Below, in pieces: positions 9,256 to 11,145 of a stretch of DNA of 64,000 bases. The notes below the pieces were generated by a model that made no database searches, was not told the DNA's origin, and saw nothing but the letters and a program-made list of their open reading frames with translations. Both the position numbers and the translations under genes were made by a program. The stretch's first letter is position 1, and every line of letters starts with the position of its first letter. The DNA is from Pseudomonadota bacterium (GTDB taxonomy: Bacteria; Pseudomonadota; Gammaproteobacteria; UBA12402): positions 10,285-74,284 of the forward strand of contig JBCCYM010000002.1 in the NCBI GenBank assembly GCA_039190005.1, in the 5' to 3' direction.

Positions 9256-9331
9256 CGCCCTTTGACCCCTCGACCCTTCGACAGGCTCAGGGCAAGCAGG
9301 CTCAGGGACCACCCTTCGACAGGCTCAGGGA
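9256..9331. repeat. Dispersed GC-rich intergenic repeat, family A ('ccttcgacaggctcagggcaagcaggctcagggacc' orientation), one and a half units
   Basis: Sequence cgccctttgacccctcgacccttcgacaggctcagggcaagcaggctcagggaccacccttcgacaggctcagggacc. Near-identical copies occur at eight or more other loci in the window. Confidence 0.9.
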
Positions 9332-9360
9332 CCATTGTGGTTTTTAGGATTATTATTTAT

Positions 9361-9445
9361 CTACCAATTTCTACAAAATTGGTAGATAAATCTGACTATT
9401 CATACTAAACTGGCAATAATCTACTAATTTTTGCTAAATTGGTAG
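9361..9445. promoter_or_regulatory. Two operator-like palindromes at the fic promoter/start: ctaccaatttCTACAaaattggtag at 9361-9385 and ctactaatttTTGCTaaattggtag at 9421-9445
   Basis: A perfect 10-bp inverted repeat with a 5-bp spacer appears twice, 60 bp centre to centre. The second copy overlaps the TTG start called in the ORF track and lies just 5' of the ATG at 9463. Confidence 0.5.
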
Positions 9446-10818
9446 TTAATGAGCTAAATGACATGAAAATTCCTTTACGACCACCGACAGTTGCTGAATT
9501 GACACAGAAATTATCCTATTCTCAACAGCAAACAGATATTCTAAAAAAAATAAGCTTATATACGTCAATTGGACAGCGAAAAGAATATTTACACTGGGAT
9601 AAACTAAGACATCTAGAACCGCCAAAAGCGTGGTCAACAGAGGAGCTATGGTTAGCTATTAAGCTCGCGCGTTCAAATGCTTATAAGCCTTTACCTTTCA
9701 CGGATAAGCGTCATCAGTCTTTTCAATTTACCACGCCTGATAGTGTAGTCCATAAATTGTATACCATTGATCGTTATCTTGGAAGAGCCGCGCGAGATAC
9801 CGCTTCGGTGTTGAATACGGGTTGGCGACAGACTTACTTGATCAGCTCAATTATTGAAGAAGCGATTAATTCCAGCCAGCTTGAAGGCGCTGTGACTACA
9901 CGAAAAGTAGCTAAAGCGATGCTGCGTGCTCAGCGCAAGCCAAGTAATCCCAGTGAACAAATGATTGTGAATAACTATAGAGCGATGCAGTTTGTTCAAG
10001 AAATAAAACATGAAAATCTGAGCGCGGAAATTATTTTTGAATTACATCGAATATTAACCGAAAAAACATTAGCGCGAACACAATGTGGCGTTTTAAGAAC
10101 GGATAACGATAACATACATGTCTGGGATGATCGGGATCACACGATTTTGCATACACCGCCTAATGCCAGTGAATTAAAACTGCGATTACGAAAAATCTGT
10201 AACTTCGCCAACACTTCTGAAGATGAATACTTTATCCATCCAGTAAGCAAGGCAATTATTCTGCATTTTATGTTAGCCTATGATCATCCTTTTATCGATG
10301 GCAATGGTCGCACAGCAAGAGCATTATTTTACTGGTATTTGCTTAAAAACGATTACCACTTAGTGGAATTTATCTCTATTTCTAGAATCATAAAGAACGC
10401 GCCGGCGCAATACGCTAAAGCGTTTCTTTATACTGAAACCGATGATAATGATATGACATATTTCATCATTCATCAGCTTGAAACAATTGTAAAAGCCTTG
10501 CAGCGTTTGAATGACTATCTGCGAAAGCAAACATGGGAAATAAAAGAAACAGAGCGTTTGGTCTATTCAGTAGAAAATTTGCGACACCAATTAAACTATA
10601 GACAGATCGCTTTAATCAAACACGCGTTAACGCATCCAAATGATCACTACTCAATTACCGCGCATCGTGTATCACATGATGTGACCTATGACACAGCCAG
10701 AAACGATTTATTAAAATTGGCTAAACTCAAATTATTTGTCCAAGAAAAAAAGGGTAAAGCGTTTATGTTTTTAGCCGCGTCTGATTTGCAACAGCGGCTG
10801 GAAAATCGCGGTGGATAA
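9439..10818 (+). CDS. fic: Fic-family AMPylase (class II, N-terminal inhibitory helix) with a C-terminal winged-helix domain
   Basis: Canonical Fic motif HPFIDGNGRTARAL. The upstream inhibitory motif SSQLEG matches (S/T)xxxE(G/N). Length is 459 aa. The start may be the ATG at 9463 (MKIPLRPP). Confidence 0.9.
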   Translation: MVVNELNDMKIPLRPPTVAELTQKLSYSQQQTDILKKISLYTSIGQRKEYLHWDKLRHLEPPKAWSTEELWLAIKLARSNAYKPLPFTDKRHQSFQFTTPDSVVHKLYTIDRYLGRAARDTASVLNTGWRQTYLISSIIEEAINSSQLEGAVTTRKVAKAMLRAQRKPSNPSEQMIVNNYRAMQFVQEIKHENLSAEIIFELHRILTEKTLARTQCGVLRTDNDNIHVWDDRDHTILHTPPNASELKLRLRKICNFANTSEDEYFIHPVSKAIILHFMLAYDHPFIDGNGRTARALFYWYLLKNDYHLVEFISISRIIKNAPAQYAKAFLYTETDDNDMTYFIIHQLETIVKALQRLNDYLRKQTWEIKETERLVYSVENLRHQLNYRQIALIKHALTHPNDHYSITAHRVSHDVTYDTARNDLLKLAKLKLFVQEKKGKAFMFLAASDLQQRLENRGG

Positions 10819-10823
10819 CAAAC

Positions 10824-10913
10824 TGGCGGAGAGAGAGGGATTCGAACCCCCGGAGCCCGCGAAGGCTCAACGGTTTTCAAGACCGCCGCTTTCAACCACT
10901 CAGCCATCTCTCC
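10824..10913 (-). tRNA. tRNA-Ser (anticodon UGA), with encoded CCA
   Basis: The reverse complement reads GGAGAGATGGCTGAGTGGTTGAAAGCGGCGGTCTTGAAAACCGTTGAGCCTTCGCGGGCTCCGGGGGTTCGAATCCCTCTCTCTCCGCCA. It has a 7-bp acceptor stem, a long variable arm and a GGTTCGAATCC T-loop. The anticodon loop is CTTGAAA. The spurious ORF 10686..10925 (GEMAEWLKAAVLKTV) is the usual tRNA-Ser translation artefact. Confidence 0.9.
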
Positions 10914-11010
10914 AATGCTCAACAAGTTTAGTGTAATTTTTGCTTGAAGTCTATAGTTTTTATATGCCCAACGCGCGTCAAAATGTGAATTTATCCGCCA
11001 ATTTTGTCAC

Positions 11011-11145
11011 CACCCTTTGACCCTTCGACCCTTCGACAGGCTCAGGGCAAGCAGGTTCAGGGACCGCGGGTTAATGAACTTCAGATTCAGGGACCACTTT
11101 TTGGATTTCCTATTGCCTTCTGACTCTCCCGCAAGCGGGAGAGAT
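11011..11145. repeat. Family A repeat copy (same orientation as 9256-9331) plus a short palindrome tctcccgcaagcgggaga
   Basis: Sequence caccctttgacccttcgacccttcgacaggctcagggcaagcaggttcagggaccgcggg...cagggaccac, then a 7-bp-stem hairpin at 11124-11141. Confidence 0.85.

What the first reader, a model, noticed from the sequence alone, without database searches (positions are those of the whole stretch)
9256..11145. fic-tRNA-Ser module bracketed by direct copies of the dispersed repeat, a candidate small integrated island
The 1.7-kb segment holding a class II Fic AMPylase gene and a tRNA-Ser(UGA) on the opposite strand is flanked by same-orientation family A repeat copies (9256-9331 and 11011-11097). 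The right copy is followed by a hairpin. tRNA genes are classic integration sites. Fic genes are frequently mobile or toxin-like. Housekeeping genes lie on both sides (serS and zapD). The arrangement suggests either insertion of the module between repeats or repeat-mediated recombination at this spot.
Basis: partly seen in the sequence, partly recalled or inferred. Interest (0 to 1): 0.6.

Follow-up and report, generated by a model that had tools for sequence, protein, structure and literature searches.

The report
Self-regulated Fic gene beside tRNA-Ser
A lone, probably self-repressing Fic (protein-AMPylating, SoFic-type) gene lies 5 bases beyond the end of a serine tRNA gene among housekeeping genes; it was probably acquired horizontally, but the repeats around it are a common spacer filler in this genome, not the edges of an island.

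Summary
The repeats do not mark an island. The family occupies 8 of the window's 22 spacers, it also brackets birA and sodB, and neighbouring spacers both holding a copy is the chance expectation (P=0.51). There is no integrase, no duplicate of the tRNA end, and no compositional anomaly. No close relative exists for a synteny test.

The mobile part is fic alone. It is a SoFic-type Fic with a C-terminal winged helix. It carries two operators of the form TACYAAT-N9-ATTRGTA, which recur upstream of homologues in 53 of 77 loci from several phyla and are about 1000-fold enriched there. Its closest homologues sit in unrelated contexts. Six of 60 loci have a tRNA 3' end facing fic. In two of them, fic alone is bracketed by 24-28 bp repeats of the tRNA end. 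The window most likely holds an old, decayed fic islet at a resident tRNA-Ser.

By-product: the repeat's 24-nt core occurs identically in more than 120 metagenome contigs (33-72% GC), often in frame inside essential genes.

The parts
7743..9011 (+). serS (seryl-tRNA synthetase), the housekeeping gene on the left
   Evidence: Pfam tRNA-synt_2b 1.4e-41 and Seryl_tRNA_N 3.8e-26
9067..9094 (+). promoter-like site TTGACT-16-TATCAT (10 of 12 matches)
   Evidence: consensus scan; function not shown
9097..9194 (+). strongly folding single-copy segment: a 17-bp stem followed by a second hairpin. Candidate small RNA or serS terminator region
   Evidence: window 9095-9215 folds at -38.1 kcal/mol, z = -4.7, 0 of 200 shuffles as good. 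No Rfam match. No second copy in the window
9256..9335 (+). left copy of the family A dispersed repeat: (GACCCYTC)n, then GAC, then (AGGCTCAGGG...)n, ending near a T run
9355..9391 (.). distal operator O1, a perfect 16-nt-arm palindrome containing TACCAAT-N9-ATTGGTA
   Evidence: I4. The motif is conserved upstream of fic homologues
9392..9420 (+). promoter-like site CTGACT-17-AATAAT lying between and overlapping the two operators; candidate fic promoter
   Evidence: 9 of 12 matches; inference by analogy with CccR
9419..9449 (.). proximal operator O2 (TACTAAT-N9-ATTGGTA), centred about 29 nt before the fic ATG
9463..10818 (+). fic: a class II Fic with a C-terminal winged helix (SoFic type), 451 aa
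   Evidence: Pfam Fic 9e-19. PADLOC SoFic model 2.1e-40. AlphaFold model with pLDDT 81.6 and a winged-helix pattern at residues 379-438. Foldseek aligns nearly the whole SoFic chain 3eqx/3zcn, E about 1e-10
10824..10913 (-). tRNA-Ser(UGA). Its 3' end lies 5 nt from the fic stop codon; interpreted as the resident gene and target, not cargo
   Evidence: ARAGORN; Rfam tRNA 62 bits
10989..11007 (.). operator-like half-site whose reverse complement matches 9373-9391 at 17 of 19; unexplained
   Evidence: I2; 0.11 matches at up to 3 mismatches expected in the whole window
11011..11097 (+). right copy of the family A repeat
11124..11143 (+). G+C-rich hairpin CTCTCCCGC-AA-GCGGGAGAG with a T-rich tail. 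It is the first terminator-like site downstream of fic on the + strand, and has the same TCCCGC...GCGGGA arms that enclose the family A copy at 54549-54587
11324..12124 (+). zapD, the housekeeping gene on the right
   Evidence: Pfam ZapD 1.8e-45

Best explanation
The segment holds two unrelated things side by side, with a genome-wide spacer repeat lying around them. (1) tRNA-Ser(UGA) is a resident gene. [quoted passage not shown] The cassette carries its own promoter, framed by two 23-bp operators of the form TACYAAT-N9-ATTRGTA. The Fic dimer most likely binds these through its winged helices and represses its own transcription. That would keep a potentially toxic enzyme at a low level until some trigger, plausibly phage infection, releases its activity. 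The cassette lies 5 nt beyond the tRNA's 3' end, which is the side where tRNA-targeting integrative elements insert. It is therefore most likely the remnant of an old integration event whose integrase and distal att repeat have been lost and whose composition has drifted to that of the host. (3) The family A repeats are REP-like arrays of a short word that occupy about a third of the spacers in this genome. They are not the boundaries of the cassette. Shown here: gene identities, the fold, operator conservation, the distribution of the repeat family, the association of the fic family with tRNA genes, and att-like scars in other genomes. Inferred: autorepression, a defence or toxin role, and integration at tRNA-Ser in this particular genome.
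For: Fic type. PADLOC SoFic model 2.1e-40 over residues 86-436. The predicted structure aligns with nearly the whole SoFic chain (3eqx/3zcn, about 362 of 367 residues, E about 1e-10) and also with CccR (7xux). The catalytic and inhibitory motifs are invariant in alignment A1.

Operators. The same half-site appears twice upstream of the 65% homologue in another genome and once upstream of the 69% homologue. With a relaxed pattern there are 79 sites in 19 kb upstream of fic, in 53 of 77 loci, against 3 sites in 813 kb elsewhere. The half-site spacer is exactly 9 nt in 43 of 47 strict sites. The proximal site is centred 20-30 nt before the ATG. The window has only these two sites in 64 kb. Precedent: CccR represses its own promoter through palindromes near the -35 and -10 boxes (PMC9755527), and dimeric SoFic binds the 100 bp upstream of its own start codon (bioRxiv 10.64898/2026.07.09.737422).

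Mobility. The closest homologues sit next to AbiEii/DUF4143 genes or AAA_21/DUF4276 genes. Related genes also occur on plasmids.

tRNA association. In 6 of 60 loci a tRNA 3' end faces fic within about 500 nt, where I estimate about 0.3 would be expected. In L051 a 24-nt exact repeat of the tRNA-Met end brackets fic alone, and in L081 a 27/28 repeat of the tRNA-Arg end does the same.

Repeats are generic. They occupy 8 of 22 spacers, their adjacency is at chance (P=0.51), and a 100% identical direct pair brackets birA and sodB.
Against: The window has no direct repeat of the tRNA-Ser 3' end anywhere and no integrase or transposase among the neighbours I annotated. fic has host-like GC (z -1.0), GC3 (z -1.0), codon usage and GC skew (z -0.6). 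Integration at this particular tRNA is therefore inferred by analogy only. No related genome lacking fic at this site could be found. A 17/19 operator-like half-site lies on the far side of the tRNA, just inside the right repeat, and this model does not explain it. DNA binding, repression, AMPylation and any defence phenotype are untested for this protein. Its score against the NCBIfam SoFic equivalog model is far below the cutoff (51 against 550 bits).
Confidence: 0.6

Rival explanations
1. One reading: fic plus tRNA-Ser together form a small mobile or recombinogenic module. Its ends are the direct family A copies, or the 19-bp inverted operator-like repeats lying just inside them.
For: The two flanking copies are 51/53 identical. 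They share a 5' variant, CCCTTTGAC, that the other nine aligned copies lack. A 17/19 inverted repeat (9373-9391 and 10989-11007) lies immediately inside both copies and is unlikely by chance. Three other loci have a full operator copy just downstream of fic; in L059 it is 28/29 identical to the distal upstream one.
Against: Bracketing by family A is at chance level and also occurs around birA and sodB. There is no recombinase. In the other tRNA-adjacent fic loci the tRNA identity varies (Met, Arg, Phe), and where scars exist they derive from the tRNA end itself. Downstream operator copies occur in only 3 of 77 loci. In the core, the left copy is identical to the copies at 15656, 16921 and 17870, while the right copy differs from it at one position, so the flanking pair are not clearly each other's closest relatives.
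Confidence: 0.12
2. fic is an old, vertically inherited resident gene of this lineage. Its position next to tRNA-Ser and between repeats is coincidental.
For: GC, GC3, codon usage and GC skew are all host-like. No att scar and no integrase. Housekeeping genes on both sides.
Against: The nearest homologues are only 69% and 65% identical and sit in unrelated contexts. The family is patchy across phyla. It is enriched at tRNA 3' ends and occurs as att-flanked islets elsewhere. Relatives at 65-67% SerS identity have no fic or tRNA after serS.
Confidence: 0.2
3. fic was captured by homologous recombination, with family A copies serving as portable homology, rather than by site-specific integration at the tRNA.
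For: Near-identical same-orientation copies lie on both sides. The family A word is shared by very many organisms and could in principle supply homology between donor and recipient.
Against: None of the 91 loci fetched up to that point (the fic loci plus the ZapD and SerS context loci) contains the word, so no plausible donor arrangement was seen. Fifty-three nucleotides is short for efficient recombination. The tRNA lies between fic and the right copy, so it would have had to be replaced as well.
Confidence: 0.05

Closest known systems
SoFic (Shewanella oneidensis SO_4266, PDB 3eqx/3zcn) and the single-gene 'SoFic' anti-phage defence system listed in PADLOC
   Same: [quoted passage not shown] The PADLOC SoFic model matches at 2.1e-40 across almost the whole profile. 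The predicted structure aligns with nearly the whole SoFic chain. SoFic binds its own promoter region as a dimer and AMPylates EF-Tu.
   Different: Only about 20% identical in the structural alignment. About 80 extra N-terminal residues. Far below the NCBIfam equivalog cutoff (51 against 550 bits). The target, the deAMPylase activity and any defence phenotype are unknown for this protein.
CccR of Yersinia pseudotuberculosis (Fic plus HTH toxin and autorepressor; PDB 7xux matches by release date, which is my inference)
   Same: [quoted passage not shown] It represses its own promoter through palindromes near the -35 and -10 boxes and needs dimerisation to do so (PMC9755527). The window has two palindromes placed in the same way around a promoter-like site.
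   Different: CccR is a T6SS-secreted effector in a T6SS effector locus, and its operator halves are widely spaced. Here the halves have a fixed 9-nt spacer and nothing suggests secretion. The operator sequence is different, and it has changed along with the protein in distant homologues.
tRNA-integrated genomic islands and their integrase-less derivatives (cis-mobilisable elements, CIMEs; from my own knowledge)
   Same: The location immediately 3' of a tRNA gene. In the homologous loci L051 and L081, fic alone is flanked by 24-28 bp direct repeats of the tRNA 3' end with no integrase inside.
   Different: In the window three defining features are absent: the distal att repeat, an integrase and atypical composition. 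The window locus is at best a decayed remnant.
REP/BIME and REPIN elements, Rickettsia palindromic elements (RPE), and the 'very small mobile repeated elements' (SDRs) of cyanobacteria described by Elhai et al. 2008 (from my own knowledge; that paper appears in the reference lists of papers found)
   Same: Family A is a short, high-copy, mostly intergenic repeat with mosaic tandem sub-units. Like RPEs and SDRs, its core word is also found inserted in frame in protein genes.
   Different: It is not palindromic (fold z -0.2) and lacks the GTAG or CGTC tag of REPs. No RAYT-like gene was seen. The identical 24-nt word occurs across contigs of 33-72% GC and in viral contigs, a host range far wider than that reported for RPEs or SDRs.

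Membership tests
Class II Fic AMPylase | Fic catalytic motif HxFx(D/E)GNGRxxR within a Fic/Fido domain | tested here: met
   HPFIDGNGRTAR at residues 275-286, invariant in alignment A1; Pfam Fic 9e-19
Class II Fic AMPylase | Inhibitory helix motif (S/T)xxxE(G/N) on the same chain, N-terminal to the Fic core | tested here: met
   S137-S-Q-L-E141-G142, invariant in A1 and helical in the model
Class II Fic AMPylase | AMP transfer to a target protein | not testable with these tools
   requires biochemistry
SoFic-type Fic (Fic plus C-terminal winged helix; PADLOC 'SoFic' defence system) | Match to the family profile over its full length | tested here: met
   PADLOC PDLC03963 at 2.1e-40, profile positions 17-351 of 361
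SoFic-type Fic (Fic plus C-terminal winged helix; PADLOC 'SoFic' defence system) | C-terminal winged-helix domain | tested here: met
   The model shows the pattern H379-390, E395-397, H398-405, H409-421, E425-430, E433-438. Foldseek aligns nearly the whole SoFic chain, including its C-terminal domain
SoFic-type Fic (Fic plus C-terminal winged helix; PADLOC 'SoFic' defence system) | Equivalog-level identity with SoFic (NCBIfam NF046030 cutoff) | tested here: not met
   51.2 bits against a cutoff of 550; a distant relative, not an ortholog
SoFic-type Fic (Fic plus C-terminal winged helix; PADLOC 'SoFic' defence system) | Protection against phage | not testable with these tools
   The only support is context: homologues sit next to AbiEii and AAA_21/DUF4276 genes
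Autorepressed Fic-HTH (CccR-like) | Palindromic operator(s) overlapping the gene's own promoter | tested here: met
   O1 at 9355-9391 and O2 at 9419-9449 flank or overlap the promoter-like site at 9392-9420. The motif is conserved and about 1000-fold enriched upstream of homologues
Autorepressed Fic-HTH (CccR-like) | Binding of the protein to the operator, and repression | not testable with these tools
   Shown for CccR and, for binding only, for SoFic; inferred here
tRNA-integrated genomic island | Lies directly on the 3' side of a tRNA gene | tested here: met
   The fic stop codon ends at 10818 and the tRNA 3' end is at 10824
tRNA-integrated genomic island | Direct repeat of the tRNA 3' end at the distal boundary (attL/attR) | tested here: not met
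   No exact match of 11 nt or more anywhere in the window. The best local alignments are at shuffle level. By contrast L051 has a 24/24 repeat and L081 a 27/28 repeat
tRNA-integrated genomic island | Integrase or recombinase gene within the element | tested here: not met
   The segment contains only fic and the tRNA; the neighbours annotated are housekeeping genes
tRNA-integrated genomic island | Composition different from the host | tested here: not met
   GC z -1.0, GC3 z -1.0, codon-usage chi-square typical for its length, GC skew z -0.6
tRNA-integrated genomic island | Presence/absence polymorphism among related genomes | not testable with these tools
   No close relative: best ZapD 46% and best SerS 71% identical, with different contexts
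Repeat-bounded (composite or MITE-like) element | Terminal repeats specific to the element, beyond what the repeat's genomic density predicts | tested here: not met
   8 of 22 spacers carry the family. Adjacent pairs: 3 observed against 2.55 expected, P=0.51. Identical direct copies also bracket birA and sodB

The most novel reading that the evidence does not exclude
The bracketing 'family A' repeats may be local arrays of a cross-phylum mobile micro-element, the 24-nt non-palindromic word CCCTTCGACAGGCTCAGGGCAAGC. The scan used its 23-nt suffix; that exact 23-mer lies, with unrelated flanks, in more than 120 metagenome contigs of 33-72% GC and in 7 viral contigs, and C precedes it in 95% of instances. 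In more than half of the instances it sits in frame inside real genes. These include PNPase, Gly/Arg/Leu/Ala-tRNA synthetases, TsaD and PolX. There is a strong bias for the frame that reads PSTGSGQA. No described class of mobile DNA accounts for a word this short with this host range. A second, weaker novel reading is that Fic's own operator sites, present on both sides of fic plus tRNA-Ser here and on both sides of fic in three other genomes, double as the ends of a cassette.
Probability: 0.35. Interest if true: 0.85.

Novelty: new member of a known kind. Interest (0 to 1): 0.4.

Why it matters
For the finding itself, the lesson is a caution. In a genome where a REP-like word fills a third of the spacers, flanking copies say nothing about mobility. 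The reliable signs of an islet were found only in other genomes: duplication of the tRNA end, and shifting gene context. Three results are more useful.

(1) A defined operator (TACYAAT-N9-ATTRGTA, usually distal plus proximal) for a large family of Fic-winged-helix proteins found in many phyla. This turns the recently reported promoter binding by SoFic and CccR into a directly testable sequence-level model. It also marks each fic gene as a self-contained unit.

(2) Examples of single-gene fic islets flanked by tRNA-end repeats. These show how such defence or toxin genes persist after their carrier element decays, or possibly how they are mobilised in trans.

(3) The 24-nt word. If it is confirmed as a mobile element, it would be an unusually small and unusually promiscuous one that is tolerated inside essential proteins.

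Tried and rejected
- A synteny or empty-site test was not possible. A genome scan with ZapD found no relative. The closest ZapD homologues (41-46%) and SerS homologues (65-71%) lie in other gene orders and have no tRNA nearby.
- An att-site search was negative. Exact k-mer and local-alignment searches for a second copy of the tRNA-Ser 3' end found nothing above shuffle level. The 13-nt match at 9402-9414 and 10815-10827 (D16) was judged to be chance.
- Composition gave no signal. GC, GC3, codon usage and GC skew of fic are all within the host range.
- Rfam returned nothing except the tRNA, both in the region at E<=1 and in the whole window at gathering thresholds.
- Family A is not a structured or REP-type hairpin: fold z -0.2 for the left copy and -1.1 for the right copy with its flanks.
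- A possible second copy of the 9108-9123 stem at 278-293 showed no real similarity when aligned.
- The idea that an operator copy downstream of fic is a general feature was rejected: only 3 of 77 loci have one.
- Literature searches for the repeat word or its translations found nothing.
- The word is absent from the 91 loci fetched up to that point, fic and context loci alike, so it does not travel with fic.
- The Logan contig carrying this fic (L219, identical to window 9305-10853) ends inside family A and 30 nt into the tRNA. That fits repeated k-mers in the assembly graph and is not evidence for an empty site.
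Full report
WHAT IS THERE

The region reads serS (7743-9011, +), a 451-nt spacer, fic (9463-10818, +), tRNA-Ser(UGA) (10824-10913, minus strand, its 3' end 5 nt from the fic stop codon), a 410-nt spacer, and zapD (11324-12124, +). The Fic protein has the catalytic motif HPFIDGNGRTAR. It also has an inhibitory-helix motif, SSQLEG, on the same chain upstream of the catalytic motif, which makes it a class II Fic. Both motifs are invariant in a 30-sequence alignment of homologues.

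Positions 9258-9310 and 11013-11065 are 51/53 identical and in the same orientation. The 19-nt core has 12 matches in the window and none in 100 shuffles. The hairpin at 11124-11143 has 8 pairs, 6 of them G-C, followed by a T-rich tail.

THE REPEATS ARE NOT ISLAND BOUNDARIES

Family A is a mosaic: (GACCCTTC)n, then GAC, then (AGGCTCAGGG plus CAAGC or ACC)n, usually ending near a T run. It occupies 8 of the 22 spacers of at least 80 nt in the window, and 8 of the 17 spacers of at least 150 nt. Three pairs of neighbouring spacers both carry it. Random placement gives 2.55 such pairs, and P(>=3) is 0.51.

A 100% identical direct pair, at 15656-15705 and 17870-17919, brackets birA and sodB, with a further copy between them. 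In the core, the left copy is identical to the copies at 15656, 16921 and 17870, whereas the right copy differs from it at one position. The only feature special to the flanking pair is a shared 5' variant, CCCTTTGAC. The repeat does not fold (z -0.2).

The hairpin after the right copy has the arms TCCCGC...GCGGGA. The same arms enclose the family A copy at 54549-54587. A related 14-nt inverted pair, TTGTTATTCCCGCG and CGCGGGAATAACAA, encloses the copy at about 16906-17062. The hairpin therefore looks like part of the repeat landscape. It is also the first terminator-like site on the + strand after fic.

NO CLASSICAL ISLAND SIGNATURE IN THE WINDOW

There is no integrase or transposase among the neighbours. 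Those I annotated are gloB, rnhA, dnaQ, pepN, fumC, a glyoxalase, two MFS transporters, cinA-like, birA, sodB, hldE, gmk and others. No second copy of the tRNA-Ser 3' end exists anywhere in the 64 kb, by exact words of at least 11 nt or by local alignment compared with shuffles. fic has GC 0.389 (z -1.0), GC3 0.35 (z -1.0), a codon-usage distance typical for its length, and coding-strand GC skew z -0.6.

The best ZapD is 46% identical and the best SerS 71%. Their contexts are already different: coaE-zapD-yacG in one case, and ftsK-lolA-rarA-crcB-serS-patatin in another, with no tRNA nearby.

fic IS NEVERTHELESS A MOVING GENE

The window's Fic is one of a family about 450 aa long.
- Its closest homologues, 69% and 65% identical, lie in unrelated places. 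One is among AbiEii, DUF4143 and AAA genes. The other lies between a tRNA-Met and an AAA_21/DUF4276 pair.
The 80 best are 44-56% identical and come from Gammaproteobacteria, Desulfobacterota, Bacteroidota, Verrucomicrobiota, Gemmatimonadota, Planctomycetota, Binatia and Chlamydiae.
- More distant relatives occur on plasmids of Vibrio, Klebsiella and other genera.
- PADLOC's model for the single-gene SoFic defence system matches at 2.1e-40 over almost the full profile. The NCBIfam SoFic equivalog cutoff is missed by a wide margin (51 against 550 bits).
- An AlphaFold model (pLDDT 81.6) shows a canonical winged helix at residues 379-438. The model aligns with nearly the whole SoFic chain (3eqx/3zcn) and also with Coxiella Fic2 and 7xux.

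A CONSERVED OPERATOR TRAVELS WITH fic

Upstream of fic the window has two palindromes, at 9355-9391 (perfect 16-nt arms) and 9419-9449. The 65% homologue in another genome has the same half-site twice (ATCTACCAATTTTTCAAAAATTGGTAGAT). The 69% homologue has it once.

Across 77 loci, the pattern TACYAAT-N5-13-ATTRGTA with one mismatch allowed gives 79 sites in the 19 kb upstream of fic, in 53 loci. It gives 3 sites in the remaining 813 kb. In strict sites the spacer is exactly 9 nt in 43 of 47 cases. The proximal site is centred 20-30 nt before the ATG and the distal one 60-90 nt before it. The window has these two sites and no other in 64 kb. A promoter-like site, CTGACT-17-AATAAT at 9392-9420, lies between them and overlaps the second. 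A 36%-identical plasmid homologue has a palindrome with a different half-site (AACTCAATTTT...AAAATTGAGTT) at the same position. That is the pattern expected if the reader of the site is the protein encoded next to it.

Two experimental precedents fit this reading. CccR, a class II Fic with a C-terminal HTH, represses its own promoter through palindromes near the -35 and -10 boxes and must be a dimer to do so (PMC9755527). Dimeric SoFic binds specifically within the 100 bp upstream of its own start codon and AMPylates EF-Tu (bioRxiv 10.64898/2026.07.09.737422). I therefore infer, without having shown it, that this Fic represses itself through O1 and O2.

THE tRNA IS THE TARGET, NOT THE CARGO

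In 6 of 60 homologous loci a tRNA gene lies within about 500 nt of fic with its 3' end facing fic. These are tRNA-Met in three loci, tRNA-Arg in two and tRNA-Phe in one. In four the tRNA and fic run in the same direction, and in two they converge as in the window. From the tRNA density in the rest of those loci I estimate that about 0.3 such cases would be expected.

In L051 (a Rhodocyclaceae MAG) the last 24 nt of tRNA-Met recur exactly 27 nt after the fic stop. The 1.58 kb in between holds only the operators and fic, and the ORF that follows starts MRVLGIESSCDET, which looks like TsaD. In L081 (a Limisphaerales MAG) 27 of 28 nt of the tRNA-Arg end recur after fic, enclosing 2.1 kb that holds only fic. 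These are att-type scars around a single gene with no integrase.

The varying tRNA identity, and the origin of the scars in the tRNA end itself, indicate that the tRNA is the integration target. By analogy, the window's fic, which ends 5 nt from the CCA end of tRNA-Ser, is most simply the remnant of such an event. Its distal scar would have eroded or been overwritten, since family A now lies where the scar would be expected. For this genome that conclusion remains an inference.

WHAT THE MODEL DOES NOT EXPLAIN

An operator-like half-site at 10989-11007 matches, as its reverse complement, 17 of 19 positions of 9373-9391. Only 0.11 matches at up to 3 mismatches are expected in the whole window. 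The half-site lies 3 nt inside the right family A copy, on the far side of the tRNA. As a result, fic plus tRNA-Ser is enclosed by a 19-bp inverted repeat lying just inside the direct repeats. Full downstream operator copies exist in 3 of 77 other loci, and in L059 the downstream copy is 28/29 identical to the distal upstream site.

THE REPEAT WORD ELSEWHERE

There are 122 instances with unique flanks, from contigs of 33-72% GC. Nothing in the flanks is conserved except a C at position -1.

Of 118 instances of the 24-mer, 66 lie inside open frames of at least 200 aa with at least 40 aa on each side. The frame counts on the forward strand are 46 for +1 (PSTGSGQA), 10 for +2 (LRQAQGK) and 1 for +0. 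On the reverse strand they are 2, 7 and 0. Five of the six frames contain no stop codon, so this skew is not a trivial consequence of stops. All 18 instances in contigs below 50% GC are on the forward strand.

The host genes include PNPase, GlyRS (hit in the same loop in two contigs whose flanks are only 50-55% identical in DNA), ArgRS, LeuRS, AlaRS, TsaD, PolX, an RpoB-like protein and L25. Against solved PNPase structures, the L182 protein aligns end to end with a 7-residue gap exactly at PSTGSGQ.

I found no paper containing the word or its translations. The closest described phenomena I know of are Rickettsia palindromic elements and the very small mobile repeats of cyanobacteria, both from my own knowledge. 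Each has a much narrower host range. This lead was followed only in part.

VERDICT

The tRNA is resident, and the flanking repeats are incidental members of a spacer-filling family. The locus is a new member of known kinds, and its interest as originally stated is modest. The operator motif, the single-gene fic islets and the 24-nt word are the parts worth taking further.

Noticed in passing
L092-L211 (metagenome contigs) and L212-L218 (viral contigs); window copies at 9274, 9312, 11029, 15676, 16937, 17844, 17890, 51140, 54554, 62500, 62612, 62732: The 24-nt core of family A (CCCTTCGACAGGCTCAGGGCAAGC; scanned as its 23-nt suffix) occurs identically, with unrelated flanks, in more than 120 metagenome contigs of 33-72% GC and in 7 viral contigs. 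In 66 of 118 cases it lies in frame inside long ORFs. The frame reading PSTGSGQA accounts for 46 of these. The hosts include PNPase, several aminoacyl-tRNA synthetases, TsaD and PolX. A PDB alignment of the PNPase shows a clean 7-residue insertion. No literature was found.
   Followed up: partly
L051 5761-7415; L081 5478-7672: Single-gene fic islets: tRNA-Met or tRNA-Arg, then the operators, then fic, then an exact 24-nt or a 27/28 direct repeat of the tRNA 3' end. There is no integrase inside. They look like decayed or cis-mobilisable elements.
   Followed up: partly
window 9355-9391 and 9419-9449; 53 of 77 homologous loci: The conserved operator TACYAAT-N9-ATTRGTA lies upstream of this Fic-winged-helix family across phyla, about 1000-fold enriched relative to the rest of the loci. 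It usually occurs as a distal plus a proximal copy. A 36%-identical plasmid homologue (L220) has a palindrome with a different half-site at the same position.
   Followed up: yes
window 10989-11007: An operator-like half-site whose reverse complement matches 9373-9391 at 17 of 19. It lies just inside the right family A copy and upstream of tRNA-Ser, so fic plus tRNA is enclosed by a 19-bp inverted repeat. Full downstream operator copies occur in L050, L059 and L067 only.
   Followed up: partly
window 9067-9215: A good promoter-like site (TTGACT-16-TATCAT), followed by a single-copy segment that folds far better than shuffles (z -4.7; a 17-bp stem plus a second hairpin). No Rfam match. It could be a small RNA or the serS terminator region.
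   Followed up: partly
window 11124-11143, 54549-54587, about 16906-17062: A second small motif, TCCCGC...GCGGGA inverted arms (extended to TTGTTATTCCCGCG and CGCGGGAATAACAA at 16906-17062). It encloses family A units at two sites and occurs 'empty' as the hairpin after the right copy. This suggests a composite element, or preferential insertion of family A into such hairpins.
   Followed up: partly
window 15656-15705 and 17870-17919: Family A copies that are 100% identical and in the same orientation bracket birA and sodB, with another copy between them. The same 'bracketing' pattern therefore occurs around plain housekeeping genes.
   Followed up: yes
L219 (identical to window 9305-10853): An independent Logan assembly of run SRR22824305 carries the identical fic. 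Its contig ends inside the left family A copy and 30 nt into the tRNA-Ser 3' end. The assembly graph therefore branches there, because of repeated k-mers, another tRNA-Ser isoacceptor, or an alternative junction.
   Followed up: no
window 10819-11143: No terminator lies between the fic stop and the convergent tRNA. The first terminator-like structure on the + strand is at 11124-11143, so fic transcripts would run antisense through tRNA-Ser and through the right repeat copy.
   Followed up: no
window 60659-61522; 32526-33128; 54712-55391: Other local duplications. A 300-nt direct repeat at 82% identity spans two adjacent small genes (60660-61184 and 61224-61808). Repeats of 138-154 nt at 89-91% identity lie around 32.5-33.1 kb. 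Internal periodic repeats of about 126-147 nt lie in the BNR/Asp-box-like gene at 54675-55712.
   Followed up: no
window 23452-24816 (minus strand): A 454-aa ORF with no Pfam match at E<=0.001, among LPS-core kinase and housekeeping genes.
   Followed up: no
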